The notes under the pieces are model-generated. The model made no database searches. It saw only the letters and a list, made by a program, of their open reading frames with translations, and was not told where the DNA came from. Shown in pieces: positions 83-64,000 of a stretch of 64,000 nt of DNA; the stretch's first letter is position 1, and each line of letters starts with the position of its first letter. This DNA comes from Cetorhinus maximus (Eukaryota): contig NC_135901.1 of assembly GCF_964194155.1 (NCBI RefSeq), positions 21,142,001-21,206,000 on the forward strand, read 5' to 3'. A program made the translations under genes and the position numbers.

Positions 83-517
83 TTAGATATCATCAATGTC
101 CTCATCATCGTCCCCAATATCGTCAAACTGGATTTCATCATCATCACTAGGTCCAAAGGTGTCTGTTTCATTGATTTTGGCATGCTCTGGAAGTTCACCT
201 TAGGCTTTTAAACTTCTTGCCTCATCCGCATTATATTTCAGGATGACATCAGCCTTATTATCCTGATAATCTCTCAACCCAACCAATATAATGTCTGACG
301 TGTTTATCCAAACCTTCTTTCTCAGCTTCCCTCGAATATGGCAAAGCCTCTTCACACCATCAAAACACATGGCTTCCAAACGTCCATTGCCCAGCATCTT
401 AATCACCTGGGCATATTCCTGACCATCTTCTTTAAACACCAGCTCACGTTTCTCGGACTCATTTTCATTCTTACCACGTCGCCTGTTCTTACCTCCCTTA
501 CCTTTATTCTTGGGCAT
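83..517 (-). pseudogene. EIF1AX: Processed (intronless) pseudogene of translation initiation factor eIF1A
   Basis: ATG at 517-515 reads [37 protein letters not shown]... In-frame TAA at 202-200 replaces Tyr106. The frame resumes [38 protein letters not shown] to TAA at 85-83. Total 435 nt = 144 codons plus stop, the canonical eIF1A length, with no introns. Confidence 0.95.
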
Positions 518-1019
518 AGCTCTACGTGTGTCCGCGGCCTCCGGCTGCTCCTGTTCACCGCACACCGCACTTTCCCTAGAAAGGCTGCATTTATTTGTGC
601 TACAACACCAGGGGAAGTACTTCCTGCATCAACACAAAGACAGTGTGAGTCGTGGAAAGCGAGAGTCGCTTTTAAGTGCAGCTGGTGTCTTATATCTCAT
701 TTTACCATTTGCTGCTGGACTGACATTCTAAATTAAGTTTTGAAATACAAGCTGAAATCTGGTATCAGGGAGTAAATTAAAACACAATCATGTTAGGATT
801 GACTGTTCCCCAAAATCCTGTCAGTCAAATTCTCATCAGAAATACATCAGGGGATTGTATTTTAATAGGTCTTTTCACAGATGCCATAAAATGACTTATT
901 TTTAAATAAATATGAACATAGTCTTCAGTAAATAAATAATAAATAACGATATTTAATAAAACAACCACCCAATGTAGGGTTCGACACTCTGACTCTGGGT
1001 TTCTGATCTCCATTAACCA

Positions 1020-1500
1020 CTAACTGAGCGGCCGCTTTGCGGATCCACAAAGTGTTTCCAAATCCTCTCCGTCCAGCCACCGGCTCCATCGCTCCCTCCC
1101 CCCAGGGCCTGTCACCGCGGGGTAAACACGGGGCCTGGGGCCTACCCCAGAAGTTGATCCAGTTCCCAGTCCAGCCGCGGTTTCCATTCCTACCCTGTGC
1201 TCACAATCTCCTCCCGCCTCCCGAACCGTCCGATCCTCCTCACTCTGTCACCATGACTGACACTGAGCATGCTCAGAGCGCACACCCACACTGCACCTGC
1301 GCAGTGGGAGCCGGGCTCACCGGCCGTCGCCATCTTGGGAGAGGAAAGCGAGTCTGTTCAGGGAGCCGGGCGTATGGGCGGCCATCTTAGTGAGGGAACG
1401 GGTGAATGAGGATGGGGCTTCCTCCCCGGTGACAGGCCCGGGTTACCCGGGCAACCGGCCGCCGCCATCTTGTGCTGAGGGTTTTCCATCCGGGTCTTTA
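1020..1500. promoter_or_regulatory. CpG-island promoter, probably bidirectional
   Basis: CpG-rich. Three YY1-like GCCATCTT motifs (~1329, ~1381, ~1465), NRF1-like CTGAGCATGCTCAG and TGCGCA, and a candidate minus-strand donor GTGAGC at 1204-1199. Confidence 0.7.
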
Positions 1501-1624
1501 GTGAAGGAATGGACAATAAGGTGGAGTCAGTTTGAAAACTGTTCAGAGGAAGGTCTGAAATCAGATTTACATCCAGATACCTGTAAGGACAATAAAGTTT
1601 ACATCAATTATGTGTTTAAAATGA

Positions 1625-1785
1625 AATCAGAATGCTGGAAATACTCAGTTCTGAAGAAGAATCATATTGGATTGGAAATGTTAAATCTGTTTCTCTCTCT
1701 TCAGAGAAGCTGCCAAACCTGCTGAGGATTTCCATAACTTTCTGTTTTTATTTCAGATTTCCAGCATACACCGTATTTTACTAAA
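1625..1785 (+). mobile_element. Penelope-like element 3' tail fragment
   Basis: agttctgaagaag...gaaatgttaaatctgtttctctctc...ctgctgag...tttcagatttccagca matches the repeat at 13917, 24804, 33533 and 61918. Confidence 0.6.
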
Positions 1786-2062
1786 ATTATATTTCTTTGA
1801 AATTTTGTTGCATATCTAGTTAAGAGTAAAATAATTGTTACCATTTAAATGTACAAATCAGTGATATTTATTTGTGTAACTGAGACTCGGCTGTTCAGGA
1901 ACAATGTTAGAAATCAGTTCACAGAAAATATAGTGGAAATCTGGAATTCTGTTGAGATTCAGACAATTGAAAATAAATAACACAGATTGCCGGACGTTTG
2001 TGAGGCAAGAGAGTATTAATGGTCATGGAATCAAGGCAGTTGGATGGATTTAACATAGAAAT

Positions 2063-4170: not shown

Positions 4171-4760
4171 TTTATTCTCAGTTTGCACACAAGAGCTGGA
4201 GAACTGGACCCAGCCAGAGGAGAGGGAGGGAGAAAACTGGGAATGGAGGACAGAAACTTAACTGGAATCTGCACAGGGAAGATGGGGTGTGGGATGGGGT
4301 TTTACAGCTTTGAGGGAAAACATGTTACACAGAAACTTGAATTGTCTGTTCTGAATTTCTATCCTGGACTGACATGATGACTTTTGTGGCCTCTTTTTAC
4401 AGGGTATTGTTAGGTGAGGATTGGCAAGCAGGAAACTCAAACCAAACATAATTTCAAGATCTGAGTCTTTCGATTCATCAGGACTTGAATATCATCCGCC
4501 TTTTAATGTGAAAAGAGAAATGTTTGTCTGTTCTGTTTGTGGGAAAAGATTTCAAACATCAGTGTGACTGGAAAATCACCCAGACACACACATCCAAGTG
4601 AGAGTGTTCCAGTGCACTGACTGTGGAAAGAGCTTTAACCAGTTACACAGCCTGAAAAAACAGCACACCATTCACAGTGGGGAGAAACCATACACATCTT
4701 CTGTGTGAACGAGACTTCAACTGATCATCCAACCTGGAGAGACACAAGGACCCCAATGTC

Positions 4761-5683
4761 ATGGAGAAACCGTGTAAATGTGGAGACTGTGGGAAGGGAT
4801 TCAATTACCCATCTGACCTGGAAATTCATAAACGCATTCACACTGGGGAGAGGCCATTCATGTGTTCCGAGTGTGGGAAGGGATTCACTCAGTTATCCAG
4901 CCTACATACACACCAGAGAAATCACACTGGGGAGAGACCGTTCACTTGCTCTGAATGTGGGAAGGGATTCACTAGGTCACCCACCCTGCTGAAACACCAG
5001 TGGATTCACACTGGGGAGAGGCCATTCACCTGCTCCGAGTGTGGGAAGGGATTTACTAGTTCTTCCAGCCTACTGATACACCAGCGAGTTCACACTGGGG
5101 AGAGGCCGTTCACCTGCCACAAGTGTGGGAAGGGATTTGTCGATTCATCCACCCTGCTGAAACACCAGCCAGTTCACTCTGATGAGAGACCTTTTAAATG
5201 CCCAGATTGCAAAAAGTGCTATAAAAGTTCCAGGGAACTGATGCGCCATCAACGTGTTCACACTGACGAGAGGCCATTCAGATGCTGTCAATGTGGGACT
5301 GGGTTCATGACATCATCTGATCTCACAATACATCAGCGGGTTCACACTGGGGAAAGGCCATTCATCTGCTGTGTGTGTGGGAAGGGATTCACTCATTCAT
5401 CCAACCTCCTGAGACACCAGCGAGTTCACTCTGATACGAGAACTTTTAAATGTTCTGACTGTGAGGAGAGCTTTAAAAACAGCACTGATCTGCTGAGACA
5501 CCAACACACTCACACTGGAGAGAGGCCATTCATCTGCTCTGTGTGTGGGAAGGATTCTCTCGGGCATTCATCCTGCTGCAACACCAGCGAGTTCACACAG
5601 GGGAGAGGCCATTCACCTGCTCCATGTGTGGGAAAGGAATCATTGATTCATCCCACCTGCTGAGACTTCAACAAGTCCACTAG
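4761..5683 (+). pseudogene. Tandem C2H2 ZNF gene A: 9 intact fingers, then a frameshift (truncated gene or pseudogene)
   Basis: [14 protein letters not shown] with TGERP linkers. A 1-nt deletion near 5551 (gggaaggattc) breaks finger 10. The original frame ends TAG at 5683 and the shifted frame ends at 5663. Acceptor ttttacag|g at 4402/4403. Confidence 0.88.
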
Positions 5684-7452: not shown

Positions 7453-8878
7453 TCAGTCCTGCTCATGGTCCTCAGCAGCAACAACACAATCCAACTTTGT
7501 CAGTGACATGTGAAGTTGCTGGTGTTTCAGCTGGCTGAATGAGCGAGTAAATCTCTTCTCACACACGGAGCAGGTGAGCAGCCTCTTCCTGGTGTGAACT
7601 CGCTCGTGTCTCAGATCAAATGACTGAGCAAATTTCTTCCCACACACGGAGCAGGTGAACGGACTCTCCCCAGTGTGGATGCGTTGGTGTCTCTGGAGGA
7701 TGGACGACTCAGTGAAACATTTCCCACACACGGAGCACATGAACGCCCTCTCCCCGGTGTGAACAGGCTGGTGTCTCAGCAGGTGGTGTAAACAAGTAAA
7801 TCCCCTCCCGCACACGGGGAAAATGTACGGCCTCTCCCCGTTGTGAATGCGCTCGTGTATCAAAACGTGGCTCAACCGAGGGAAGCTCTTCCTACACACG
7901 AAGCAGATGAACGGTCTCTCCCCGGTGTGAACTCTCTTGTGTGTGAGCAGGGTGGATGACTGAGTGAATCTCTTCCCACACAGAGCAAGGGAATGGTCTC
8001 TCCCCAGCGTGAATTCGCTTGTGCATTGAAAGCTGGGTTGAACGAGTGAATCCCTTCCCACACTCGGAGCAGCTGAACGGTCTCTCCCCAGAGTGAAATC
8101 GCTTGTGTATCATAAGATCAGATGACCGACTGTATCCCTTCCCACACAAGGAGCAGGTGAATGGTCTCTCTCCAGTGTGAACTCGCTTATGTATCATAAG
8201 GTGGAATGAATGAGTGAATCTCTTCCCACACACCGAGCAGGGGAACGGCCTTTCCCCAGTGTGAATGCACTGGTGTCTCAGCAGATTAATGCTTCTTTTA
8301 AAGGTCTTCTCACATTCAGTACATTTAAAAGGTCTCTTTTCCAAGTGAACCAATTGGTGCTCAGTGTAATGGGAGGACTGAGTGAATCTCTTCCCATACT
8401 GGGAGCAGCTGAACGGCCTGTCCTTGGTGTGAACTGGCTGGTGCTCAGTGAGATGCACTGACTCGCTGAACGACTCCCCACAGTAAGAGCAGCTGAACGG
8501 CCTCTTGTCAGTGTGAACTCGCTGGTGTTGGACCAGTTCCTCAGAGGTTTCAAAGCTTTTCTCAGAGTCAGAGCATTGAAGAGGATGCTCATCAATGTAA
8601 TCGAGCTGGTGCGCCAGCAGGTTGAATGAACACATGAATTTCTTCCCACACATGGAGCAGGTGAACGGTCTCTCGCTATTGTGAGTTCGCTGTCGTGTCA
8701 GCATGTTTACCAGCTGTATCAATCCCTTCACACAGGAGCAGGTGAACGGCCTCTCACCAGTTTCCAGCTGAGATGGTCAATTAAATCCCTTCAGATCCCG
8801 ATGAATTGAGTGACTTTCAGATTTTGACATGAGGTTTGGTTTGTTTTTCCTGACTGCAAATCCTCCTCTTCTAACACC
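7453..8878 (-). pseudogene. Tandem C2H2 ZNF gene B, about 15 fingers, degenerate
   Basis: ORFs 7892-8731 and 7453-8061 join across a TG-dinucleotide slip near 7980. Several fingers have lost Cys/His (CSDSEK, CSQYGK, IFPVC). Acceptor cttacag near 8879. Confidence 0.88.
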
Positions 8879-9191
8879 CTGTAAGATACGTTTACAATGA
8901 ATTACACATAATATACATTAAACAAACAGGTCATTTGGCCCATCCGGTCGCTGCGAGAGTTTCCAATCCACACGAGTCTCCTGCTGTTATGCCAACCTCA
9001 TCTCAGCCTTTGAGCATATCTTTTGAATCCCTTTTCTCTCATGTTCTCACCTAGTTTCCTTTTGAAAGCATCTTAAGTTATTTGTGTCAACCACTTCCAG
9101 TAGTAGTGAGTTTCATATTTTAACTACTGTCTGAGGAAAAAAAGATCTCCTATTTCCCTGTTGGATTTATTAGTCTATATGGTGTTTTCAG

Positions 9192-9665: not shown

Positions 9666-9839
9666 TAGGCCACCCCATTCACAATTTTAAAAACCTATAT
9701 CAAAAGAGATGAACCTCATTTTTGGTTTGAGTTTGCTGTGTGTAAATCCTCCCCTTCTAACCCCCTGTAAAAGGAGTTTCTAAATCCATCCCTGTCAGTC
9801 CAGGATAGAAATGCACAGCATTCTCTCCGGCTGACAGGG

Positions 9840-10475
9840 ACACGGATGACCGCGCATGCGCCCTGCTGAATATTGACCTTATTAAGATGGCGGCCGTTAA
9901 CTCGGGCCTGTGACCGAGGAACAATCGCTATTTTTCGCGGTCACAGGCCCGAGTTAACGGCCGCCATCTTAATAAGGTCAATATTCAGCAGGGCGCATGC
10001 GGGAGCTTCTTATCTGGGATTTGAGGCCTCCATCCTGGGTGTGTGAAGGGTTGGCACAAACCCACCGGCTCCATTACTATTCCGCACTCGGCCGTTTCTC
10101 ACCCACTTTACATTTGACACGACTGCCTGTTTGTTACTGTGGAGAAGGCGGGTTTGGGGCCTACACTTTCCCTCCGGCTCCATCCCTCCCGCAGTTTCTC
10201 ACGGGCTTCCACATGACCCGTTCATATGTGTACTGCGCATGCTCCAGATCACAATGCCCGGCTGATTGACGGCAGCTCAGGACCAATAAGACGAGGGGGC
10301 GGAGTTGGAGGACCCGGCAGCAGCTGCATCATTTTGGAAGCTGATTTGTCTCAAACTCCAGGAGAAAACTGGACCTTTCTGTTTGTGGCTTTAAACAGAT
10401 GAAACCCTGTGGGTGCGGAGTAAACATTTCAACATTTGTCAGTGAAATGGGTTCATTCAGGGCAGACAGCAGGGA
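9840..10475 (-). promoter_or_regulatory. ZNF promoter module for gene B
   Basis: NRF1-like GCGCATGCG, YY1-like AAGATGGCGG, CCAAT (~10283) and GC box GGGGCGGAG. Paralogous to 20500-21010 and 61190-61735. Confidence 0.75.
9853..10001. repeat. Perfect inverted repeat, 64-bp arms with a 21-nt spacer
   Basis: 9853-9916 is the exact reverse complement of 9938-10001 (checked base by base). Confidence 0.97.
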
Positions 10476-18791: not shown

Positions 18792-19382
18792 TCACTTGTG
18801 AACCCGCTCGTGTCTCAGCAGGTGTTGTGACTGAGTGAATCCCGTCCCACACAAGGAGCAGGTGAACGGTCTGTCCCCAGTGTGAACTCGCTGATGTGTC
18901 AGCAGTTGGGATGACCAACGGAATCCCTTCCCACACATGGAGCAAGTGAACGGCTTCTCCCCAGTGTGAGTGCGTTGGTGTTCATTGAGGTCGATTGACT
19001 GCCGGAAGCTCTTTCCACAGGAAGTACAGCTGAATGGATTCTCCTTCGTGTGCATTCGGTGATGTGACTGCAGGGCGAATACCTGAGTGAATCCCTTCCC
19101 ACACACGAAGCAAGTGAATGGTCTCCCACCCGTGTGAATTCGCTGGTGTTCAGTGAGGATGGATGAAGACTTGAACCTCTCTCCACAGGTTGTGCAGCTG
19201 AATGGCTTCTTCTCAGTGTGAACTCGCTGGTGTGACCGAAGGCCGGATGACTGAGTGAATCCCTTCCCACACACGGAACAGCTGAACGGCTTCTCCCCAG
19301 TGTGAATGCGTCGATGGATTTCCAGCTGAGATGAAGAATTGAATCCTTTACCACAGTCCTCGCATTTCCACGGTTTCTCCAT
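18792..19382 (-). CDS. Tandem C2H2 ZNF gene C: 7 intact fingers, 196 aa, no effector domain visible
   Basis: ATG at 19382 (atcATGG) reads MEKPWKCEDCGKGF... with seven canonical C-x2-C-x12-H-x3-H fingers. Acceptor ttttccag near 19727. Confidence 0.9.
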   Translation of the reverse strand: MEKPWKCEDCGKGFNSSSQLEIHRRIHTGEKPFSCSVCGKGFTQSSGLRSHQRVHTEKKPFSCTTCGERFKSSSILTEHQRIHTGGRPFTCFVCGKGFTQVFALQSHHRMHTKENPFSCTSCGKSFRQSIDLNEHQRTHTGEKPFTCSMCGKGFRWSSQLLTHQRVHTGDRPFTCSLCGTGFTQSQHLLRHERVHK

Positions 19383-20279
19383 GATGTCAGTGTGTTTGTC
19401 TCCCTCCTGGTTGGACAATCAGTTGAAGCTCATCCACGCACAGAACATGTGTATGGTTTCTCCCCACTGTGAACAGTGTAATTTTTTTTCAGGCTGTATA
19501 ACTGGTTAAAGCTCTTTCCACAGTTTGTGCACTGGAACACTCTCACTCGGGTGTGTGTGTGTCTCGGTGCTTTTCCAGTCACGCTGATGTTTGAAATCTT
19601 TTCCCACAGACAGAACAAACAAACATTTCTTCTTCCACATTCAAAGGTGAATTGAGTGACTCTGCCAGATCATGTTGTGATGTTCAGTTTGAGCCTCCTG
19701 TCTGTAAATCCACCCGTTCTAATACCCTGGAAAAGGAGTTTACAAAACTTATCACTGTAAGTGCAGGATAGAAATTCTGAACAGACAATTCTAGTTCCTA
19801 TGGAACCGGCTTTCCTTTTTCCTGCAAAGCCATAAATCCTCATCCCACACACTCTTCCTCCTCCTCGTACTGGAATCCAAACCTCAGAGTGAACAGCCAT
19901 CCCTTAATTTATGGGATTTCCCTGTATTTAAGTCAACTATCCTAGGCCGCATGATGCTGGGCACTGTTTGTCCCCTAAATTGGACCCCTCTCATTGCGCA
20001 GAACCCTGTCCCTTACTGTTTCTGTGTTCCAACAGCTCTGTCATCATCCCACCCAACACCCTCCCACCGACTGAAATGGACTCCCACGGCAGGGTGTCCT
20101 TTAATTTTTGTTGGTCAGCCTGCCAAACTCATCACACCATCTCCAACATTCCTTTCCCCAACTCCCAGTTTTCTCCTTCCCTCCACTCTGGCTAGGTTGA
20201 GTTCTCAAGCCTCTCTGTGCAGAGTGAGAATATAATCAATGAATCAATCATTTTCTCTCCTGGTCACTGGGACCCTGTA

Positions 20280-21010
20280 GCCCCGCCCACTCCCTGTTGC
20301 TTCACCAAGATGGCCGCACAGAAAGTCAGGATTCCAGTGCAGGTTGTTATTGGGGGTTTGGGGCCTGCAGCGGGTGTTTCCGAATCCTCCCCGCCCACCT
20401 CCCAGGGTTTCCTTCCTTCCCACAGATCAGATCCTCATTGATTTGAGCCCAAAGTGTAACCTCTTATTTATTGTCCCCCCTCCCCCATCCTCTGATGTGA
20501 ACCATCCTCCACTCGCTGACCCAGGATGGCGGCCGTTAACCTGGGCCTGGGCCTGTTCCCGGGAGGGAGAAGCCCCGCACTGGTGTTTATGAAGCCTCCC
20601 AACCCACTGCCTCCCTCATGACCCGCCCGGCAGTAATTTACCGGCTGAGAATTTCCACACAACCGCCTCAACTGTCCGCCATCACCCGCACTGTGCATGC
20701 TCCAGTTCACCGGACCTGAGGAGGATTGACGGCAGCTTTGGACCAATAGGAAGAGGGGGCGGGGTTCGAGGACCGAGAAGGAGCGGATGGCCCTTCAACC
20801 AATCGGAGCGAATGAGGGGCGGGGCTGAGCCCGGATCTCCCTCATTGGCTGAAACCTCTGCATCATTTTCAAAACTTTGATTTGTCTCAAACTCCAGGAG
20901 AAAGCTGGACCTTTCTGTTTGTGGCTTTAAACAGATGAAACCCTGTGGGTGTGGAGCAAACATTTCAACATTTGTTAGTGAAATGGATTCATTCAGGACA
21001 GACAGCAGGG
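20280..21010 (-). promoter_or_regulatory. ZNF promoter module for gene C
   Basis: CpG-rich, with YY1-like GATGGCGGCC, CCAAT boxes (~20743, ~20799, ATTGG ~20845) and GGGGCGGGG boxes. Paralog of the 10.3-kb and 61.5-kb modules. Confidence 0.75.
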
Positions 21011-26954: not shown

Positions 26955-28160
26955 TTACTTGTGAACTTGCTGGTGTCTCAGCAGTGTAGATAAATAAGCA
27001 AACCCCTTCCCACATTCAGAGCATGTAAATGGTCTCTCCCCAGTGTGAACTCGTTGGTGGGTCAGCAGGTTGGATGATTGCTTAAATCCCTTCCCACATT
27101 CAGAACAAGTGAACGGTCTCTCCCCAGTATGAACACGCTGGTGTCTCAGAAGGTTGGATGGGTGAGTGAATCCCTTCCCACACTCAAGGCAGATGAATGG
27201 TTGCCCCCCAGTCTGAACCCGGTCGTGCGTTAGCAGGATAGATAACTGAGTGAATCCCTTCCCACACTCAGGGGAGGTGAACAGCCACTCCCCAGTGTGA
27301 ACTCGCTGGTGGACAGTGAGTTGAGATGAGCGCCTGAACCCAGTCCCGCAGTGAGAGCACCTGAATGGTTTCTCGTCAGTGTGAGTACGTTGATGGGACA
27401 TCAGGTCCTGGGAGCTTTTAAAACACTTCCCACAGTCTGGGCATTTAAAAGGTCTGTCATCAGTGTGAACTCGCTGGTGTGTCAGCAGATGGGATTGCTG
27501 AGTGAATCCCTTCCCACACATGGAGCAGGTGAATGGCCTCTCGTCACTGTGACCATGCTGGTGTCTCAGAAGGTTGGATGACTGAGTGAATCCCTTCCCA
27601 CAAACAGAGCAGGTGAACGGCCTCTCCCCAGTGTGACTATGCTTGTGTGCAGTGAGTTGAGACAACCACCTGAACCCAGTCCCGCAGTGAGTGCACCTGA
27701 ATGGTCTCTCGTCAGTGTGAACACGTTGATGGCGCCTCAGTTCCATGGAACCTTTATAGCACTTCCCGCAGTCCGGACATTTAAAAGGTCTCTCCTCAGT
27801 GTGAACTCGCTGGTGTGTCCACAGGTTGGATGACTGAATGAATCCCTTCCCACACTTAGAGCAGGTGAATGGCCTTTCCCCAGAGTGAACTCGCTGGTGT
27901 ATCATCAGATAGGATGAACGAGTGAATCCTTTCCCACACTCGGAGCAGGTGAATGGTTTCTCCCCAGTGTGAGTGCGCCAATGACTTTCCAGGTCAGACG
28001 GGGATTTGAATCCCTTCCCACAATCCCCACATTTCCACGGTTTCATCCCGTTGTGATGGCATTTATGTTTTGACAGGTCAGATGATCGGTTGAAGCCTTG
28101 TCCACACACAGAACACGTGTACGGTTTCCCTCCACTGTGAACGGTGCTTTTTCCTTCCAT
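26955..28160 (-). CDS. Tandem C2H2 ZNF gene D: 14 fingers (finger 11 degenerate), 401 aa
   Basis: ATG at 28160 (aacATGG) reads [19 protein letters not shown]... in an uninterrupted frame. Acceptor tttcgcag near 28268. Confidence 0.92.
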
Positions 28161-28444
28161 GTTCAAAATTCAATGATATTTAGGTTGTGATAAATTGGGC
28201 GACTGTCAGATCCTGCTGTGATGTTTGGTTTGAGTTGCCCGACTGCAAATGCTCTCCTCCTAATACCCTGCGAAATTTATTTAAAACAGAAAAAGGGAGT
28301 GAGAGAACACCCACAAAAACACAAAGGCAGGTTGTGAAATTGAGCTGAGTGAATGTGGTAATTTATGGGGCTGGCACCAGGAAAAAGTGACCATGAAAAC
28401 TGCTGGATTATCAAAATATCCAACTGGTTCACGAATGTCCTTCA

Positions 28445-32140: not shown

Positions 32141-32249
32141 CTTACCTTGGTCAGATCTATTCTTATCCACTGAAGTTGGCTTTCCCCCAGTTAATTATTC
32201 TTACTCTTACTTGAAATGTTTGCACACAGGCAGAATAGATAAACTGCTT

Positions 32250-33000
32250 ACCTTCCACATTAAAAGTCTGATGATATTCAGGTCCTGACGAATCACATGA
32301 CTCTGTCAGATCTTGATGTGATTGTGTTTGGTTTGAGTTTTCCGTCCGTCAATCCTCTGCATCTAATACGCTGGAAAAGAAATTTCCAAAATCCATTACT
32401 GTCAGTCCAGGACAGGCATTCAGAGGAGACAAACATTTCTCTTGCCTTGTGTTTGCTGCGTGTAAATTCTCCGCTTCTAAACCCCGGCAAAGGAGTTTCC
32501 AAAACCCATCCCTGTCAGTGCAGGAGAGAAATTCACAACATTCCTCCTGAGGGAAGGGTTCGAGGACCGCGCATGCGCATTGCTGCACATCCTCCTCTCT
32601 CCCCCCCTTTAGAAAGATGGCGGCAGCGCATGCCCATTGCTCACTATAGCAGCACAACTGCACATTGCCTCCTCTACAAATGGCGGCCGTTTACTCGGAC
32701 CTCTCTCCAAAAGCAGAGCAGGCCCTACCTGCCGTCGCCTCGTTCGATTCGACCACAAGACGAGTAGCTTCTTATTCACGATTTCAGGCTTCCACTGGGT
32801 GTTCATTAAGCTCCCCACCAACTGCGCCACTTCCATTCCTCCCCACTCACCGGCTCCCTACACTCGCCTGTACTCCGCCATTCCTCAGTCTTTCGATCGG
32901 CTACGGACTGTGCTGCGCATGCTCCAACTTGAGCTCACATTGCGCATGTTCCTACACTGCCCGGGTACCACGCCTGCGCCACGACCTCCTCTTGAGAGGA
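32250..33000 (-). promoter_or_regulatory. ZNF promoter module with two tandem acceptor/exon-start stubs (likely upstream part of gene D)
   Basis: NRF1-like CGCGCATGCGCA (32568) and TGCGCATG (32914, 32941), YY1-like AAGATGGCGG (~32613). Duplicated exon-start blocks at 32260-32420 and 32445-32545. Confidence 0.7.
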
Positions 33001-41807: not shown

Positions 41808-43210
41808 GAAGAGAAGCGCGAGAGCAGCCGGCAGTTGAAGAGAAGAGCGAGAGCAGCCGGCAGTTGAAGAGGGCACGAGAGGAACCGGCAGTTGAAGAGA
41901 AGCGCGAGAGGAGCTGGGAGTTGAAAAGGGGCGCGGGAGGAGTCGGGAGTTGAAGAGAAGCGCAAGAGGAGCTGGGAGTTGAAAAGGGGCGCGGGAGGAG
42001 TCGGGAGTTGAAGAGAAGCGCAAGAGGAGCCGGCAGTTGAAGAGGGGCACTAGAGGAGTCGGGAGTTGAAAAGGGGCGCGGGAGGAGTCGGGAGTTGAAG
42101 GGAAACGCGATAGGAGTCGGGAGTTGAGAACGAGCGCGATGGGAGTCGGGAGTTGAAGAGAAGTGCGAGAGGAGTCGGGAATTGAAGAGAAGCGCTAGAG
42201 GAGCTGGGAGATGAAAAGGAGCCGGGAGTTGAAGAGAAGCGTGAGAGCAGCCTGCAGTTGAAGAGAAGCGTGAGAGTAGGCGGGAATTGAAGAGAAGCGC
42301 GACAGGAGCCGGCAGTTGAAGAGAAGCGCGAGAGGAGTCGGGAGTTGAAGAGAAGCGCGAGAGGAGTCAGGAGTTGAGAAACAGCGTGAGAGGAGCCGGG
42401 AGTTGAAGCGCGAGAGGAGCCGGCAGTTGAAGAGAAGCGCGCGAGGAGCCGGCAGTTGAAGAGAAGCGCGAGAGGAGCCTGGAGTTGAAGAGAAGCCTGG
42501 AGTTGAAGAGAAGCGCGAGAGCAGCCGGCAGTTGAAGAGAAGTGCGAGAGCAGCCGGTAGTTGAAGAGAAGCGCGAGAGCAGCCGGCAATTGAAGAGAAG
42601 CGCGAGATGAGTCGGGAGTTGAAGAGAAGCGCGAGAGGAGTCGGGTGTTGAAGAGAAGCGCTAGAGGAGCTGGGAGTTGAAGAGAAGCGCGAGAGGAGCT
42701 GGCAGTTGAAGAGAAGTGCGAGAGCAGCCGGTAGTTGAAGAGAAGCGCGAGAGGAGCTGGCAGTTGAAGAGAAGCGCGAGAGGAGCTGGCAGTTGAAGAG
42801 AAGCACGAGAGCAGCCGGCAGTTGAAGATAAGCGCGAGAGGAGCCGGCAGTTGAAGAGAAGCGCGAGAGGAGTCGGGAGTTGAAGAGAAGCGCGAGAGGA
42901 GCCAGCAGTTGAAGAGAAGCGCGAGATGAGTCGGGAGTTGAAGAGAAGCGCGAGAGGAGCCAGCAGTTGAAGAGAAGCACGAGAGGGGCCGGCAGTTGAA
43001 GAGGAGCCTGCAGTTTAAGAGAAGCGCGAGAGGAGCTGGGAGTTGAAGAGAAGCGTGTGAGGAGCTGGCAGTTGAAGAGAAGCGCGAGAGGAGCTGGGAG
43101 TTGAAGAGAAGCGCGTGAGGAGCCGGCAGTTGAAGAGAGGCGCGAGAGGAGTCGGCAGTTGAAGAGAAGCGCAAGAGGAGCTGGGAGTTGAAGAGGGGCG
43201 TGTGAGGAGG
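41808..43210. repeat. 29-bp CpG-rich, purine-skewed minisatellite (GCAGTTGAAGAGAAGCGCGAGAGGAGCCG)n, about 48 copies
   Basis: Direct tandem repeats. The 29-aa periodicity of the minus-strand ORFs (3 units = 87 nt) confirms the unit length. Confidence 0.95.
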
Positions 43211-43317: not shown

Positions 43318-44000
43318 ATGGAAGTAAAAAGAACGGTTCACAGTGGGAAGAAACTTTACATGTGTTCGATGTGTGGACCAGGCTTCTGTCAATCATCTGG
43401 CCTGTCAAGACACAAGTGCATTCACATTGGGGAGAAACCGTGGAAATGTGGGGGCTGTGAGGAGGCATTTAGTTACCCATCTGAACTGGAAACTCATCGG
43501 CGCATTCACACTGGAGAGAAACCATTCACCTGCTCCATATGTGGGAAAGAATTTATTCGATCATCAAACTTGCTGATACACCAGCAAGTTCACACTGTCT
43601 GGACTGTGGGAATTGCTTTAAAAGTTCTGGGGGACTGATTTCCCATCAACGTGTTCATACTAACAAGAGACCGTTCGGGTGCTTTCACTGCAGGACTGGG
43701 TTCAAGCGATCATCTCAACTCATTGTACACCAGCGACTTCACACTGTGGAGAGGCCGTTCACCTGCTGTAAAAGTGGGAAAGGATTCACTCAAACATCCA
43801 CCCTGCTGAAACACCAGCGAGTTCACACTGACGAGAGACCTTTTAAATGCCCAGACTGCGGGAAGTGCTGTAAAACTTCCTGGGAATTGATGTCCCATCA
43901 ACGTGTTCACACTGACGAGAGGCCATTCACCTGCTCCGAGTGTGGGAAAGGATTCACTCAATCATCCCACCTGCTGAAACATCAGCGAGTTCACGAGTAA
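43318..44000 (+). pseudogene. Tandem C2H2 ZNF gene E: about 8 fingers, frameshifted, paralog of D
   Basis: [19 protein letters not shown]... A linker deletion near 43596 shifts the frame, and the second part runs to TAA at 44000. Confidence 0.85.
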
Positions 44001-48467: not shown

Positions 48468-49681
48468 ACAGCCACAGTCGGAGTATCTAAAAGGTCTCTA
48501 ATTGGTGTGACTGCCGTGGTGTTTCAGGAGGTTGGATGACTCAGTAAATCCCTTCCCACACACGGAGTAGATGAATGGTGTCTCTCCCCAGTGTGCACTC
48601 GCTGATACTTCCCCAGGCTGGATGCATCAGCAAATCCCTTCCCACACTCAGTGCAGATGAACGGCCTCTCCCTAGTGTGAACGTGTCGGTGTGTCCGCAG
48701 GCTGGATGACTCAGTGAATCCTTTCCCACACACGGAGCAGGTGAATGGCCTCTCTCCAGTGTGAACCCGCCGGTGCTTCCACAGGCTTGAGGAATCAGTG
48801 AATCCCTTCCCACACTCAGTGCAGGTGAATGGCCTCTCTCCAGTGTGAACTCGCTGGTGTGTCAGCAGACTGGTTGACCGAGCAAATCTCTTCCCACACA
48901 CAGAACAGGGAAATGGCCTCTCTCCAGTGTGAACTGCCTGGTGTCTCAGCAGAGTTGATAACTGAGTGAATCCCTTCCCACACACGGAGCAGGTGAATGA
49001 CTTCTCCCCAGTGTGAACTGCCCGGTGGTTCTGCAGGGTGGATGATTCACTGAATCCCTTCCCACACACAGAGCAGGTGAACGGCCTCTCCCCGGTGTGA
49101 ACTCGTTGATGCGTCAGCAGGTGGGATGACCGAGTGTATCCCTTCCCACACATGGAGCAGGTGAATGGCCTCTCCCCAGTGTGAACTCTCTGGTGCTTCT
49201 GCAGGGCGGATGAATCTCTGAATCCCTTCCCACACTCAGAGCAGCTGAACAGCTTCTCCCTGGCATGTATTCGCTGGTGTCTCTGCAGGTTGGATGAAAG
49301 AGTGAATCCCTTTCCACACACGGAGCAGGTGAATGTCTTCCCCCCAATGTGAACTCGCTGGTGTCTCCGGAGGCTGGATGAATCCCCGAATCCCTTCCCA
49401 CACTCAAAGCAGGTGAAGGGTCTCTCCCCAGTGTGAATTCGTCTGTGTGTTAGAAGTCTGGATGAATCAGTGAATCCTTTCCCACACTCAGAGCAGGTGA
49501 ACGGCCTCTCCCCAGTGTGAATTCTCTGGTGTGTCAGCAGGTTGGATAACTGAGTGAATCCCTTCCCACAATCAGGGCAGGTGAACGGCCTCTCCCCAGT
49601 GTGGCTGCGTCGATGAATCTCCAGCTCTGATGGAGCTTTGAATCCCTTCCCACAGTCCCCACATTTCCACGGTTTCTCCCT
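48468..49681 (-). pseudogene. Tandem C2H2 ZNF gene G: 13 in-frame fingers, start codon lost, 3' end broken
   Basis: The frame is open from accAGGgagaaaccgtggaaatgt (49681) to about 48578, where a 2-nt insertion shifts it. The remainder ends just before the LTR element. Confidence 0.85.
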
Positions 49682-50659
49682 GGTGCAGGTTGCCTTTTGT
49701 CCCTCCAGTTTTGATGATTAGTTAAAGCCTCGTCCTCACACAGAACATGTGTACAGTCTCTCATCACTGTGAATGATGTGGTGTTTTTCAGACTGTGTAA
49801 CCTGAACACTCTCACTTGGGTGTGTGTGTTTCGGTGCTTTTCCAGTCACACTGACGTTTCAATTTTTTGAACCAGACAGCACAGACAAACATTTCTCCGT
49901 CTAGATTCAAAGGCCGATGATATTTACATTCTGACTAATCGAGTGACTCTGTCAGATCTTAACGTGATGTTTGTTTTGAGATTTTTGTCCTTAGATCCTC
50001 CCCTTCCAATATCCTGAGAAAGGAGTTTACAAGAGTCAACACAGTCATTACAGGATAGAATTTCAAGACTGACAATTCTAGTTTCTATGAAACATATTTT
50101 CTTCTTTCGTTCCTGAAAGGTTATAAATCTCATTCTGTTGTCCCTAATATACATCCTCCCAGTTCTCCTGAAGGTGCCAGTTCATGCTGATTAACAGATC
50201 CATGCTCACTGCTTCCTATCCAGGACACAGAACCCTGGAAATCTTCATGCAGGCTGTTCACCTATGTATAGTACTATATTACTTGATTAGAGATAAATGG
50301 GGGATGTGAGGAAGAAATTCATTTGGACAGCAAGTGATCATAAACTGGAACACACACCATATGAGGATGGTGGAAGAGGAAATCATTGATGATTTCAGAA
50401 TGAAATTGGATGGGCGCTTGAAGGAAATAAACTTGCAGGGTTATGGGCATATAAAGGGGGGAATGGGACTGACTGAGTTGCTCTTCAGACAGTCGGCATG
50501 GACTTGGGTTGCCGAATGGACTCCTACTATGCCGTAATGACTCTATGACTGGAAATATATAGCGTAGCTACAGTACTATATCACGAGACTAGAAATAATA
50601 ATAAATGTACTTGACAACAGAACCATAAGTAATATATCTGTGTAGCAGATAACAACACT

Positions 50660-53133: not shown

Positions 53134-53339
53134 ATAAAAGCAAAGTACTGTGGATGCTGGAAATCTGAAATAAAAATGGAAAATTCTGGAAAAACTTAGC
53201 AGGTCTGACAGCACCTGAGAGATCAGAGTTAACGTTTCAAGTCCGTATGAGTCATATGGACTTGAAAGATTAACTCTGTTTCTCTCTCCACAGATGCTCT
53301 CAGACATTCTGAGTTTTTCCAGCATTTTGTTTTTATTTT
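53134..53339. mobile_element. Head-to-head (palindromic) Penelope-tail insertion with a ~15-bp TSD
   Basis: Two inverted tails meet at 53251. Flanks are acagtgatgaatttt (53119-53133) and acattgatgaatttt (53340-53354). Confidence 0.75.
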
Positions 53340-53568
53340 ACATTGATGAATTTTGTAAACTCCCTTTACAGGGTTTTAGAAGGGGAGATTTTGCAGACAG
53401 AAATCTCAAACCAAACATCACATCAAGATCTGACAGAGTCGCTTGATTTATTGGGGCCTGAAAAAACATCACACCCTTCACAGTGGGGAGAGACTGTACA
53501 CGTGTTCTGTGTGAGGACCGGGCTTCAACTGATTGTCAAACCTGGAAAGATACAAGGACACTGGCACC

Positions 53569-54831
53569 ATGGAGAAACCGTGGAAATGTGGAGACTGTGA
53601 GAAGGGATTCAGATCCCCATCAGAGCTAGAGATTCATCGACGCAGTCACACTGGGGAGAGGCCGTTCACCTGTTCTGAGTGTGGGAAGGGATTCAGTAAT
53701 TCATCCAACTTATTGAAGCACGAAGGCGTTCACACCGGCGAGAGACCATTCACCTGCCCTGACTGTGGGAAGGGATTCAGATCCCTATCTAAGGTGGAGA
53801 TTCATCGACGCAGTCACACTGGGGAGAGGCCGTTCACCTGCTGTGAGTGTGGGAAGGGATTCACTCATTCATCCAACCTCCTGACACACAAGCGAGTTCA
53901 CACCGGGGAAAGGCCATTCTCCTGCCCTGAGTGTGGGAAGGGATTCAGTGATTCATCCACCTTGCGGAAGCATCAGCGAGTTCACACTGGGGAGAGACCA
54001 TTCACCTGCTCTGAATGTGGGAAAGGATTTACTCGGTCATCCAACCTGCTGATGCACCAGCATGTTCACACCGGGGAGAGTCTATTCATTTGCTCTGAGT
54101 GTGGGAAGGGATTCAGTAATTCATTCAACTTGCAGACACACCAGCGGGTTCACACTGGGGAGAGGCCATTCAGCTGTTCTGAGTGTGGGAAGGGATTCAC
54201 TCATTCATCCGCCCTACGGACCCACCTGCGAGTTCACACTGGGGAGAGGCCATTCATCTGCACCATGTGTGGGAAGCGATTCACTCAGTCATCCAGCCTG
54301 CTGGCACACCATGTCACTCACACCAATGAGAGACCCTTTAAATGCTCTGACTGTGGAAGTGGCTTCAAAATCGCTGCAGATCTGAGAGTGCACCAGCGCA
54401 TTCACACTGAGGAGAGGCCATTCAGCTGCTCTCACTGCATAAAGAGGTTTAGAACGTCATCCAGCCTTCGGATACACCAGCGAGTTCACACTGGGGAAAG
54501 GCCATTCCCCTGCTCCGAGTGTGGGAAGGGATTCAGTGATTCATCCACCCTGCATACACACCAGCGAGTTCACACTGGGGAGAGACCGTTTGCCTGCTCT
54601 GAGTGTGGGAAGGGATTCCGTCGGTCATCCCACCTGCTGACACACCAGCAAGTTCACACTGGAGAGAGGCCGTTCATCTGCCCTGAGTGTGGGAAGGGAT
54701 TCACTAATTCATTCAACTTGCGAACACACCTGCGAGTTCACACTGGGGAGAGGCCGTTCACCTGCACTGTGTGTGGGAAGGGATTCACTCAGTCATCTCA
54801 CCTACAGACACACCAGCGAGTTCACAGGTGA
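53569..54831 (+). CDS. Tandem C2H2 ZNF gene H: 15 intact fingers, 420 aa, no effector domain visible
   Basis: accATGG start reads [10 protein letters not shown], with all Cys/His intact. Acceptor ctttacag near 53371 and AATAAA near 55092. Confidence 0.93.
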
Positions 54832-61004: not shown

Positions 61005-61735
61005 CTCAAAGACCGATAATATCCAGGTTCTGATGAATCGAGTGACTCGAGTCAGATATTAATGTGATCTTTGCTTGGAGTTTGCTGTGTGTAAATCCTC
61101 CCCTTCCAATTCCCTGTAAAAGGAGTTTCCAAAACCCATCCCCGTCAGTCCAGGATAGAAATTCACAACATTCTCTCCTCCTGCTGACAGGGATGACCGC
61201 GCATGCGCCCCGCTGCATATTAACCCCGCTCAAGATGGCGGCCGTTAACTGGGGCCCTTTTGCTGGAGACGCGATCCCGCAGCCTTCGCCCCACAGATAG
61301 TTTCTTATTTTGGGTTCAGAGCCGCATCGAGTGCTTACGAACCCTCCCCGTCCATCCACCAGCTCTATTGTTCCCTCCACTTCGCCCTTTATCTTACCTC
61401 CTGTGGATCCGACAAACAAGCCTCTGACCACCGCCATTACCCACACTGCGCATGCTCCAGATCACGGTGCCCGGCGAATTGACGGAAACTCCGGACCAAT
61501 AGGAAGAAGGGGCGGACCTGGAGGTCCGATCGTGAGCGTGTGATCCTCCAACCAATCGGAGTGAATGAGGGGCGGGGCTGAATCCGGATGCCCCTCATTG
61601 GCTGAAACTCTGCATCATTTTGAAAGCTGACTTGTCTCAACCTCCAGGAGAAAACTGGACCTTTCTGTTTGTGGCTTTAAACAGATGAAACCGTGTGGGT
61701 GTGGAACAAACATTTCAGCATTTGTTAATGAAATG
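61005..61735 (-). promoter_or_regulatory. Orphan ZNF promoter module with acceptor and exon-start stub, no finger array downstream
   Basis: NRF1-like CGCGCATGCGC, YY1-like AAGATGGCGG, CCAAT and GC boxes. Acceptor ttttacag|gg at 61114/61113. The stub ends near 61005 at LINE sequence. Confidence 0.7.
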
Positions 61736-61917
61736 TGGGAACATGATGAAACAATGCTCAAACCATTCATGGGCTGACTTAAATGAATAACTGGGGAGAC
61801 AGGGAGTGTTAACATTAAAACAAGGAGAGTCCCTGTCTCCAATAAATGAACCGGCAGAAGGGCTAGGACAGGTTCAGGAGAAGGTAAATAATGTCATAAT
61901 TCAGAATAACACAGACT

Positions 61918-62016
61918 CTGAAGAAGAGTCATATGGACTTGAAACGTTAACTCTGTCTTTCTTTCCACAGATGCTGTCAGACCTGCTGAATTTTTCCAGC
62001 ACTTCTTGTTTTTCTT
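61918..62016 (+). mobile_element. Penelope-like tail element with a 7-bp TSD and hammerhead-like core
   Basis: acagact at 61911-61917 and 62017-62023. The paralogous empty site is at ~39620. Confidence 0.8.
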
Positions 62017-62749
62017 ACAGACTATAAAGAAACAGCTGATTTCAAAGATATTATTTTGTAGTATGTGTGGAGGGGATCAGCTGAATCAGGTTTAAAGGGG
62101 TGAAATGATTTTTTTTCTAGACTGGACAATCACATTAAAATCTGCAACTCAGATGGGACCATGGATTATTGCAGATTTCCATCAGTGCATTATTCCAGGA
62201 AGCCTTAAAATCATACGGACAGTATTTCAGAACCAGGGTTCCAACTACACGGGGGCAACAGGCAATTTCGCCCCAGAAAAGCCCACAAAAAATCAATCAC
62301 AGGGACAGCCACTCTAAGAACAACCTTTGTCGGAGGCAGAATCTGTGAGCAGGAGCTCCTCCAGTCGCAATGCAGAATCCCAACTGCTGGGATGCTGGGT
62401 AATTGTGAGTGGAAAATATTGTTTTGTGATTACTTTGTGGTTATGTGATTGAGACTTTGACCATAGAGCCAATCAGTAAAGACCAGAACCAAATGATAAA
62501 GAAACACCAATGCACGGACCTTCCATTATACAGCAGAAGGAAGGGGAATGGGCATTTGTGAAGAATTTACAGCAAGTTAGTCGAACATGACTTGCCCTTA
62601 ACACGTTTGAGCTGGCTTGAGCTATGTTTAAATCACTTCGAGAAATGGAAAATGGCAGAGCACCCATTTACGAGGATTTACGTGTGATTTTTCTTTTTAT
62701 TTGTTCACAATTGTGTATCAGAAAATTGTTTTCGTTCTCTATTTTGTGT

Positions 62750-63137
62750 TTCAATGGCTCCGCCGATACCCACAATCTCCTGCGTGTGTGACAGTTCCCT
62801 ATCCACTGTACAGGAACCCAACGCGCAGGCGTAATGCTGACAGTACCTGGAGCATGCGCAGTGTCAGTTCGCTCAGAGCCCTGGGCGTGCGGGAGACGCG
62901 AGTGAGAGTCGCTGAGGCGGAGGCGGGAGCCGGGGTGGGGAGGATCCAGAAACACCTGGTGTAGGCCGCAATCCCGGATCACAGCCTCCATGACCCGTGT
63001 TTGCAGCTCCGGGGCTTCTTCCCGGTGACAGAGCCGGGTTCAGGGGAAGTGGCTCCGGGGCGGGAGATTCAGAAACTGCGGGGAGACCGCGGGCCGCCCG
63101 GGGGCTCAGAAACTGGGGGGACGGACTCAGGGTCCGG
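62750..63137 (+). promoter_or_regulatory. CpG promoter and non-coding first exon of ZNF gene I
   Basis: NRF1-like GCATGCGCA (~62852), donor GG|GTAAGA at 63138 and acceptor tttacag|g at 63447/63448. Confidence 0.7.
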
Positions 63138-63829
63138 GTAAGACCCACCCGGGAGGGTCCCCCCTCCTGTGTCCCGCCCGACGGCTGCTGAATCAGAGAC
63201 ACAGGAGCTGGAGAACTGAACCCAGGCAGAGGAGAGGGAGGGAGAAAACTGGGAGTGGAGGAAAGGAATGTTGGAGATGGTGAGATGGGTTTGGATTTCA
63301 GCCCAGGGAGGAGGGAGAGTGTGTGGGACGGGGATTTACAGCTTTGGGGGAACAAGAGAAAAAAAATGTTCCATAGAAACTAGAATTGTCTGTTCTGAAT
63401 TTCAGTCCTGGATTTAAAGTGATGACTTTTGTAAACTCGTTTTACAGGGTATTAAACTGGGATGACTGACAGACAGAAAACACAAAGCAAACATCACATC
63501 AAGATCTGTCAGAGGCACTGAATTCATCAGGACCTGAATATCATCAGCTTTTGAATGTGGAAGGAAAAATGTTTGTCTATTCTGTCTTTGGGAAAGGACT
63601 CCAAACATCGGTGTGACTGGAAAAGCCTCAACACACACACATCCGAGTGAGAGTGTTCCAGTGAACTGACTTTGGAAAAAATTTTAAGCAGTTACACAGT
63701 CTGCAAAAATATCGCACCATTCACAGTGGGGAGAAACTGTACATGTGTTGTGTGTGGACAAGGCTTCAACTAATCGTCCAACGTGGAGAGAGTCAAGGAC
63801 CCCCACACCATGGAGAAACATGGAAAAGT

Positions 63830-64000
63830 ATGGACTGTGGGAAGGGATTCAATTTCCCATCCCAACTGGAAGTTCATCGGTGCAGTCATACTGGGGAGAG
63901 ACCGTTCACTTGCTCCATCTGTGGGAAGGGATTCACCCATTTGTACAGCCTTCGGACACACCAGCGAGTTCACACTGAGGAGAGGCCATTCACCTGCCCT
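63830..64000 (+). CDS. Tandem C2H2 ZNF gene I, 5' part (runs off the window; status uncertain)
   Basis: The family ATG at 63810 is out of frame after a 1-nt deletion. ATG 63830 opens [57 protein letters not shown]. Confidence 0.6.
   Translation, partial: MDCGKGFNFPSQLEVHRCSHTGERPFTCSICGKGFTHLYSLRTHQRVHTEERPFTCP

What the first reader, a model, noticed from the sequence alone, without database searches (positions are those of the whole stretch)
4403..4763. Effector-less ZNF family whose leader is a dead zinc-finger array and whose start codon arose in a linker
Seen: in A, C, G, H and I the exon starts with a once-coding linker (e.g. VLEGEILQTEISNQTSHQDLTESLD in H) and up to three ruined fingers. 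An in-frame stop lies exactly 13 codons before the start position: TGA 4722, TGA 19421, TAA 49720, TGA 53530, TAA 63771. Gene D keeps CGA there. Translation would begin at the TGEKP-to-TMEKP change in strong Kozak context (AGG in G). The acceptor is phase 1, as in KRAB-ZNF finger exons, but no effector exon is present. Inference: the family expanded after shedding its N-terminal domain and makes fingers-only proteins, possibly a repeat-recognition system independent of KRAB.
Basis: partly seen in the sequence, partly recalled or inferred. Interest (0 to 1): 0.75.

Follow-up and report, generated by a model that had tools for sequence, protein, structure and literature searches.

The report
Shark zinc fingers, beheaded and restarted
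A very large shark gene family carries three dead zinc fingers in front of a start codon that sits in an old finger linker, so its proteins are likely bare DNA-reading fingers, while predicted skate and ray relatives keep a short front-end peptide that may be the silencing handle the sharks lost.

Summary
Before each array lie a fossil linker and three fossil fingers (HMM hits in 79 of 80 paralogues, 0 antisense). The leader now drifts: dN/dS about 1, with frequent frameshifts. The ORF from TMEKP is under purifying selection. The stop at codon −13 (64/80), a second stop (70/80) and the ATG were most likely inherited from one founder gene. Corrections: the old frame is phase 2, not 1; G's AGG is a derived loss; I is frameshifted; D belongs to a larger sister subfamily with its own ATG (858 against 489 exact motif hits) and a linker that is also mostly broken. 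KRAB gave one hit, off this chromosome. New lead: predicted skate and stingray homologues keep linker and lead finger in frame behind a conserved peptide with a PxVxL motif like the KAP1 HP1 box; it was not found in this genome. No splice junction, translation, HP1 binding or repeat binding was shown.

The parts
1001..1600 (.). CpG island, likely (bidirectional) promoter region of gene A; A's first exon not fixed
   Evidence: GCCGCCATCTT motifs (YY1-like label recalled); by eye, it also holds a minus-strand copy of a promoter/exon-1 type seen
4380..4402 (+). Pyrimidine tract and AG acceptor of the finger exon of A
4403..4519 (+). Fossil linker (old frame phase 2; 4-nt deletion in A), now likely 5' UTR
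4520..4567 (+). 15-codon upstream ORF in dead finger 1, ending at the shared TGA 4565-4567
   Evidence: this ATG is kept in 76% of 80 paralogues
4529..4591 (+). Dead finger 1
4613..4675 (+). Dead finger 2
   Evidence: coordinates read
4697..4757 (+). Dead finger 3, with a 2-nt deletion and TGA 4722-4724 at helix position -1
   Evidence: coordinates read
4761..5663 (+). Gene A ORF: ATG in the old linker, 9 fingers, then a frameshifted tail
7453..8884 (-). Gene B: broken family member
18792..19382 (-). Gene C ORF: 7 fingers, clean end
19383..19726 (-). Gene C dead leader, stop at 19421
20580..20900 (-). Gene C promoter and candidate short first exon
26955..28160 (-). Gene D ORF (MEGKST subfamily, own ATG, finger 3 alive with CGA at 28088)
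28161..28267 (-). Gene D short leader (frameshifted linker only)
43318..44000 (+). Gene F: MEGKST type, frameshifted after finger 3
48524..50013 (-). Gene G: leader, TAA 49720, AGG in place of ATG; likely pseudogene
53372..53568 (+). Gene H shortened dead leader, TGA 53530
53569..54831 (+). Gene H ORF: 15 fingers, clean end
62701..63300 (+). Gene I CpG promoter region
63449..64000 (+). Gene I: leader, TAA 63771, ATG 63810 with an immediate frameshift; likely pseudogene

Best explanation
These are members of a chromosome-wide shark C2H2 family in which a fossil linker and three fossil fingers lie before an ATG in an old finger linker; the fossil part likely serves as 5' UTR, and the intact copies likely make proteins of fingers alone. 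Shown: the fossil anatomy, the neutral leader, the selected ORF, the family size. Inferred history: an ancestral gene lost or silenced its upstream coding part. One founder then carried two CGA-to-TGA stops and the TGEKP-to-TMEKP ATG, and a sister subfamily gained its own ATG (LNVEG to LNMEG). Both expanded by segmental duplication, with much gene death. Inferred mechanism: a CpG promoter and a short first exon splice to the acceptor. Ribosomes scan past or reinitiate after short upstream ORFs and start at ACC ATG G. The protein reads DNA through diversifying helix residues and acts by occupancy, or through partners that bind the fingers. The lost part was not KRAB; the best candidate is the short PxVxL-bearing peptide seen in predicted skate and ray homologues.
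For: Fossil fingers in 79/80 sense, 0/80 antisense. Leader dN/dS 0.88-1.29, equal to shifted-frame controls (0.88-1.15); live structural residues 0.03-0.27; TGERPF linker 0.30. Of 197 leader indel events, 162 are not multiples of 3, and 0 of 80 leaders are stop-free in the ORF frame. The old frame is open to the first stop in only 5 of 80. The TGA form of the -13 context has 71 exact genome hits, the CGA form 0. The 80 long-leader copies form one group apart from 22 D-type copies, with AGG and CGA states nested. In a sample not chosen by motif (16 copies in 600 kb): first stop 14/16, -13 stop 11/16, ATG 12/16, strong context 11/12. Upstream ATGs average 3.75 against 6.2 in shuffles. KRAB: 1 hit, on C34. 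A CpG island lies within up to 6.5 kb upstream in 69 of 76. The skate linker scores 23.8 bits against a shark linker profile, with a best shuffle of 4.6.
Against: No splice joint from a first exon to the acceptor was among the joints listed (15 of 160, 15 of 60). Some contigs cross the acceptor unspliced, and the runs' RNA status is a guess, so neither the transcript form nor translation is shown. Splicing to an acceptor beyond the stops is not excluded. Only 30 of 118 copies have a clean ORF, and 61 of 118 have ATG plus at least 5 fingers. Support for the A-type node is weak (0.46). The dead fingers change more slowly than the flanking intron (p=7e-9), which plain drift does not explain. More than half of the loci were chosen by the start motif, which inflates the ATG counts. 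Some D-type copies keep an open linker (from a search that favours them).
Confidence: 0.75

Rival explanations
1. A hidden upstream effector exon is spliced in frame, either past the stops or in a subset of genes with an open linker, so the working proteins are not fingers-only.
For: Small N-terminal exons are easily missed (PMC2604467, passage; FiNZ is 28 aa in one exon, PMC10547256). Some D-type copies keep an open linker. No junction data were obtained. The exon-1 profile hit only 39 of 76 upstream regions.
Against: 0 of 80 leaders are open. The D-type linker is open in 2 of the 23 copies with a called acceptor, of 33 found. Candidate first exons carry ATGs in mixed phases. The N-termini of shark database models differ from each other, and several map to promoter or intron DNA. 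The batoid peptide was not found in 1.46 Mb of loci or by two genome searches.
Confidence: 0.1
2. The family is mostly duplicated junk: a cassette amplified by segmental duplication, with no present protein function.
For: About half or more of the copies are broken. Among the five named genes only C and H have clean ORFs. In 17 close pairs, non-structural finger positions give pN/pS 0.79.
Against: Structural residues have dN/dS 0.11-0.27 even when all 80 copies are included, and the TGERPF linker 0.30, against about 1 in the leader. Indel density is 14 per 100 nt in the ORF start against 54 in the leader.
Confidence: 0.08
3. The leader is a kept control device (stop read-through, a conserved upstream ORF, or an RNA or DNA element), not merely an inherited scar.
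For: Dead fingers change about a third more slowly than the intron. The 15-codon upstream ORF ATG is kept in 76%. The first stop also ends linker ORFs in Pristiophorus and Heterodontus models.
Against: Frameshifts rule out read-through. The leader shows no codon periodicity (p 0.56-0.90). Both stops are lost repeatedly on the tree. The rate gap may come from gene conversion or from poorer intron alignment.
Confidence: 0.07

Closest known systems
Tetrapod KRAB zinc-finger genes
   Same: Clustered tandem C2H2 arrays in one exon, TGEKP-type linkers, birth and death, variable helix residues.
   Different: No KRAB found on this chromosome; finger exon in phase 2 (phase 1 for KRAB genes is recalled); the front of the exon is untranslated fossil.
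Cyprinid FiNZ-ZNFs (Wells et al. 2023, PMC10547256)
   Same: Lineage-specific expansion to hundreds of genes; an upstream exon plus a finger exon; contact residues diversify.
   Different: FiNZ is a conserved 28-aa coding exon. Here no upstream frame reaches the ORF through the acceptor, and TE repression is untested.
ZNF146/OZF (PMC8896011)
   Same: Finger-only protein; that paper shows it binds LINE-1 without KRAB.
   Different: A single human gene, not a family of about a thousand descended from one truncated founder; orthology not tested.
HP1-box (PxVxL) proteins such as KAP1 (PMC12126490)
   Same: The batoid peptide PRVVLRR matches KAP1 P486, R487, V488, L490 and R492 as numbered in that paper.
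   Different: The motif sits directly on the zinc-finger protein; binding is untested; it was not found in the shark genes studied.

Membership tests
Kruppel-type C2H2 (PF00096) tandem arrays | C-x2-C-x12-H-x3-H repeats with 7-residue linkers | tested here: met
   only zinc-finger-type families over A, C, D and H
KRAB-ZNF | KRAB domain upstream of the array | tested here: not met
   1 match, on C34 (150 of 152 candidates scored)
KRAB-ZNF | Finger exon entered in phase 1 (feature recalled) | tested here: not met
   the old frame is phase 2
KRAB-ZNF | Diversifying selection at helix -1, 3 and 6 | tested here: inconclusive
   dN over background dS 1.3-1.5 (parsimony, fingers 1-2); 0.91 in 17 close pairs
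KRAB-ZNF | TE binding and H3K9me3 silencing | not testable with these tools
   needs ChIP-seq or knock-down
FiNZ-ZNF | Conserved N-terminal coding exon fused in frame to the array | tested here: not met
   0 of 80 leaders open into the ORF; no FiNZ profile was run
SCAN-ZNF | SCAN domain in the gene | tested here: inconclusive
   none of the 150 scored matches lies on C24, but 4987 candidates existed
Finger-only proteins (OZF type) | No domain besides fingers in the ORF | tested here: met
   in 27 of 53 A-type ORFs the stop follows one residue after the last His
HP1-box proteins (batoid homologues only) | PxVxL motif | tested here: met
   PLVVL or PRVVL in P0127 (with P0273, P0274), P0059 and P0151
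HP1-box proteins (batoid homologues only) | Binding to the chromoshadow dimer | not testable with these tools
   no whole chromoshadow domain was available: the two genome matches cover profile positions 21-52 only

The most novel reading that the evidence does not exclude
The ancestral shark-and-ray zinc-finger family carried its own HP1-box peptide and recruited heterochromatin directly, without KRAB or TRIM28. Skates and rays kept it. Sharks lost it, created new start codons twice inside old coding sequence, and still expanded to more than two thousand finger-only genes on one chromosome that recognise repeats by another route.
Probability: 0.3. Interest if true: 0.78.

Novelty: new variant of a known kind. 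Interest (0 to 1): 0.52.

Why it matters
Large ZNF families are thought to police mobile DNA through an attached effector such as KRAB or FiNZ. Here an estimated 2,400 arrays on one chromosome (15 ORFs of at least 5 fingers in 400 kb, extrapolated) seem to work without one, and the loss is still legible in the leader. The shared start sequence makes a family-wide knock-down feasible, as was done for FiNZ. The batoid peptide names a concrete, testable candidate for the lost module.

Tried and rejected
Read-through or recoding of the shared TGAs: rejected, because frameshifts dominate. The linker as a surviving short protein: rejected (dN/dS 0.99-1.00, open in 5/80). D-type genes as the intact effector-bearing form: rejected as a rule (2 of 23 open), with exceptions. 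Shark exon 1 as a fossil of the batoid peptide: not supported (p 0.36-0.73, 16 sequences). The batoid peptide was not found with these queries in G000, the Atlas gave leads only or nothing, and PDB gave nothing useful. No holder on record as RNA was listed. The laid contigs showed no first-exon junction among the rows listed; this is no evidence on expression. Plain NG86 ratios (leader 0.52-0.82) lack a transition correction, and the shifted-frame controls were similar, so one search is preferred. The C and H value is circular and was not used. An IQ-TREE run and one script timed out; ended in script errors; searches replaced 73/75 and 88. No structure or complex prediction was run. Literature: ten searches ran and none listed a paper describing this shark family. 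The main text of Wells 2023 has no occurrence of shark, chondrichth or cartilaginous. Its supplements were not read and may hold counts for cartilaginous fishes.

Full report
Setting. The window lies on contig C24 (65.2 Mb) of a 4.0 Gb genome. Named database relatives of the leader are all sharks. The leader DNA gave 3930 first-look candidates; of the 40 scored, 33 lie on C24. Exact motif counts are 489 for the MEKPWKC start and 858 for the MEGKST start; the reversed controls gave 0. Forty evenly spread 10-kb stretches held 15 ORFs of at least five fingers and 7 long-leader copies, which extrapolates roughly to 2,400 arrays and 1,100 long-leader copies on C24 (the second figure is my arithmetic from it).

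The observation. All five stops and D's CGA are at the stated places. Read in the old frame, the exon gives a 40-codon linker, then three fingers with correct C-x2-C-x12-H spacing, then T-M-E-K-P-W-K-C. A profile built from 219 live fingers hits the leader of 79 of 80 non-redundant paralogues on the sense strand and none on the antisense strand. The 80 come from 118 long-leader copies after removing those at least 95% alike; shorter acceptor copies were left out of this set. The -13 stop is the Arg codon at helix position -1 of dead finger 3 (64 of 80 are stops). A second stop lies in dead finger 1 (70 of 80), and a third replaces the first Cys of dead finger 2 in 56%.

Corrections. The exon begins G GTA TTG GAA, so the old frame is phase 2. 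On a tree built without the -13 and start codons, the 80 long-leader copies form one group apart from 22 D-type copies, though with weak support (0.46); G's AGG and the few CGA states are nested. The stops and the ATG are therefore best read as one founder's legacy. I frameshifts right after MEK, G has no Met before finger 7, and A loses frame after finger 9; only C and H of the five are clean. D and F belong to the sister subfamily, which lacks dead finger 1 and most of finger 2, keeps finger 3 alive and starts at LNMEG. Its linker is open in 2 of the 23 copies with a called acceptor, of 33 found. A search that favours open linkers found more such copies. Whether D lost those fingers or A gained them is not resolved.

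Selection. With transition-aware parsimony counts, the linker and dead fingers give dN/dS 0.88-1.29, like shifted-frame controls. Live structural residues give 0.03-0.27 and the TGERPF linker 0.30. Codon periodicity is absent in the leader (p 0.56-0.90) and present in the ORF (p 1e-4). Of 197 leader indel events 162 shift the frame, and no leader is open into the ORF. Helix positions -1, 3 and 6 run at 1.3-1.5 times the background synonymous rate in fingers 1-2, but give 0.91 in 17 close pairs. Diversifying selection is suggested, not shown. In 600 kb not chosen by motif, 12 of 16 copies keep ATG, 11 of those 12 in strong context, and 7 have ATG plus five or more fingers.

What lies upstream. 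A CpG island sits within up to 6.5 kb upstream in 69 of 76 genes. A recurring unit has CCAAT and GC boxes, GGAGCATGCGCAG (NRF1-like, label recalled), about 55 nt, and a GTAAG donor. Its ATGs fall in mixed phases and encode no conserved peptide. KRAB gave one match, on C34; it looks like a lone KRAB-A exon, PRDM9-like by recall. Contigs from guessed-RNA runs of related organisms cover the leader, and one piece begins at 4403, but others cross the acceptor, and no first-exon joint was among those listed. The two-exon model is therefore inferred.

The batoid lead. Predicted proteins from three skates and a stingray (P0127, P0274, P0059, P0151; named) carry the family's W-K/E-C lead finger. They have a linker homologue in frame: 23.8 bits against a best shuffle of 4.6 for P0127, and 8.4 against 2.8 for P0059; P0151 shows only a short SNQT remnant. 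In front lies DPKLS-x4-P-x-VVLRRLRLP, identical at 16 and 18 of 21 positions between the stingray and the two skate types (read). It contains PxVxL, the motif the HP1 chromoshadow domain binds, and PRVVLRR matches KAP1 residues P486, R487, V488, L490 and R492 (PMC12126490). The peptide was not found in G000. Limits: three distinct gene models, all predictions; the motif was noticed after the fact; binding is untested; and gain in batoids is not excluded without a chimaera outgroup.

Mechanism and verdict. Most likely the intact genes make finger-only DNA-binding proteins from a leader-rich mRNA by leaky scanning or reinitiation. Upstream ATGs average 3.75 against 6.2 in shuffles. Repeat recognition is an analogy to KRAB, FiNZ and ZNF146 and was not tested. 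This is a new variant of a known kind, lineage-specific tandem ZNF expansion. The scan has noted the shark family and the dead leader several times; it held nothing on the batoid peptide.

Papers seen. PMC10547256: abstract, introduction and passages. PMC8896011: abstract and passages. PMC12126490, PMC11603059, PMC8455134 and PMC2604467: passages only. Others as search listings only. No supplements were read.

Noticed in passing
window 200-628 (-): Intronless eIF1A-like frame (PF01176) that stops early; likely a processed pseudogene.
   Followed up: partly
window 41808-43209: A 29-bp tandem repeat abuts gene F and replaces its acceptor region.
   Followed up: no
window 61006-61256, 9718-9900 and 32211-32590 (all -); also L213, L218: Extra copies of acceptor plus linker start lie just downstream of promoter units; they may form a middle exon in some genes.
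   Followed up: partly
window 9853-10001 and 53162-53344: Long inverted repeats; the first is 95% self-complementary and carries two GCCGCCATCTT motifs.
   Followed up: no
P0001, P0035: Pristiophorus gene models fuse histone H2A to this leader or array; read-through or annotation artefact.
   Followed up: no
L193 / L213 (G000:C24:26823309): Long D-type gene with an open linker from the acceptor, a 718-codon open frame and repeated CCAAT units upstream; a candidate old member.
   Followed up: partly
leader positions 121-366 across paralogues: Dead fingers change about a third more slowly than the adjacent intron (p=7e-9); unexplained.
   Followed up: partly
candidate first exons: The ATG inside the NRF1-like site lies 56 nt before the donor in 12 of 21, which is phase 2 and in frame with the old linker; may be chance or the old start.
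   Followed up: partly
window 1650-1790 and 61917-62021: Short, very abundant SINE-like repeat.
   Followed up: no
genome-wide: Many dispersed SCAN-like matches (4987 candidates), probably LTR retrotransposon capsids (recalled link).
   Followed up: no
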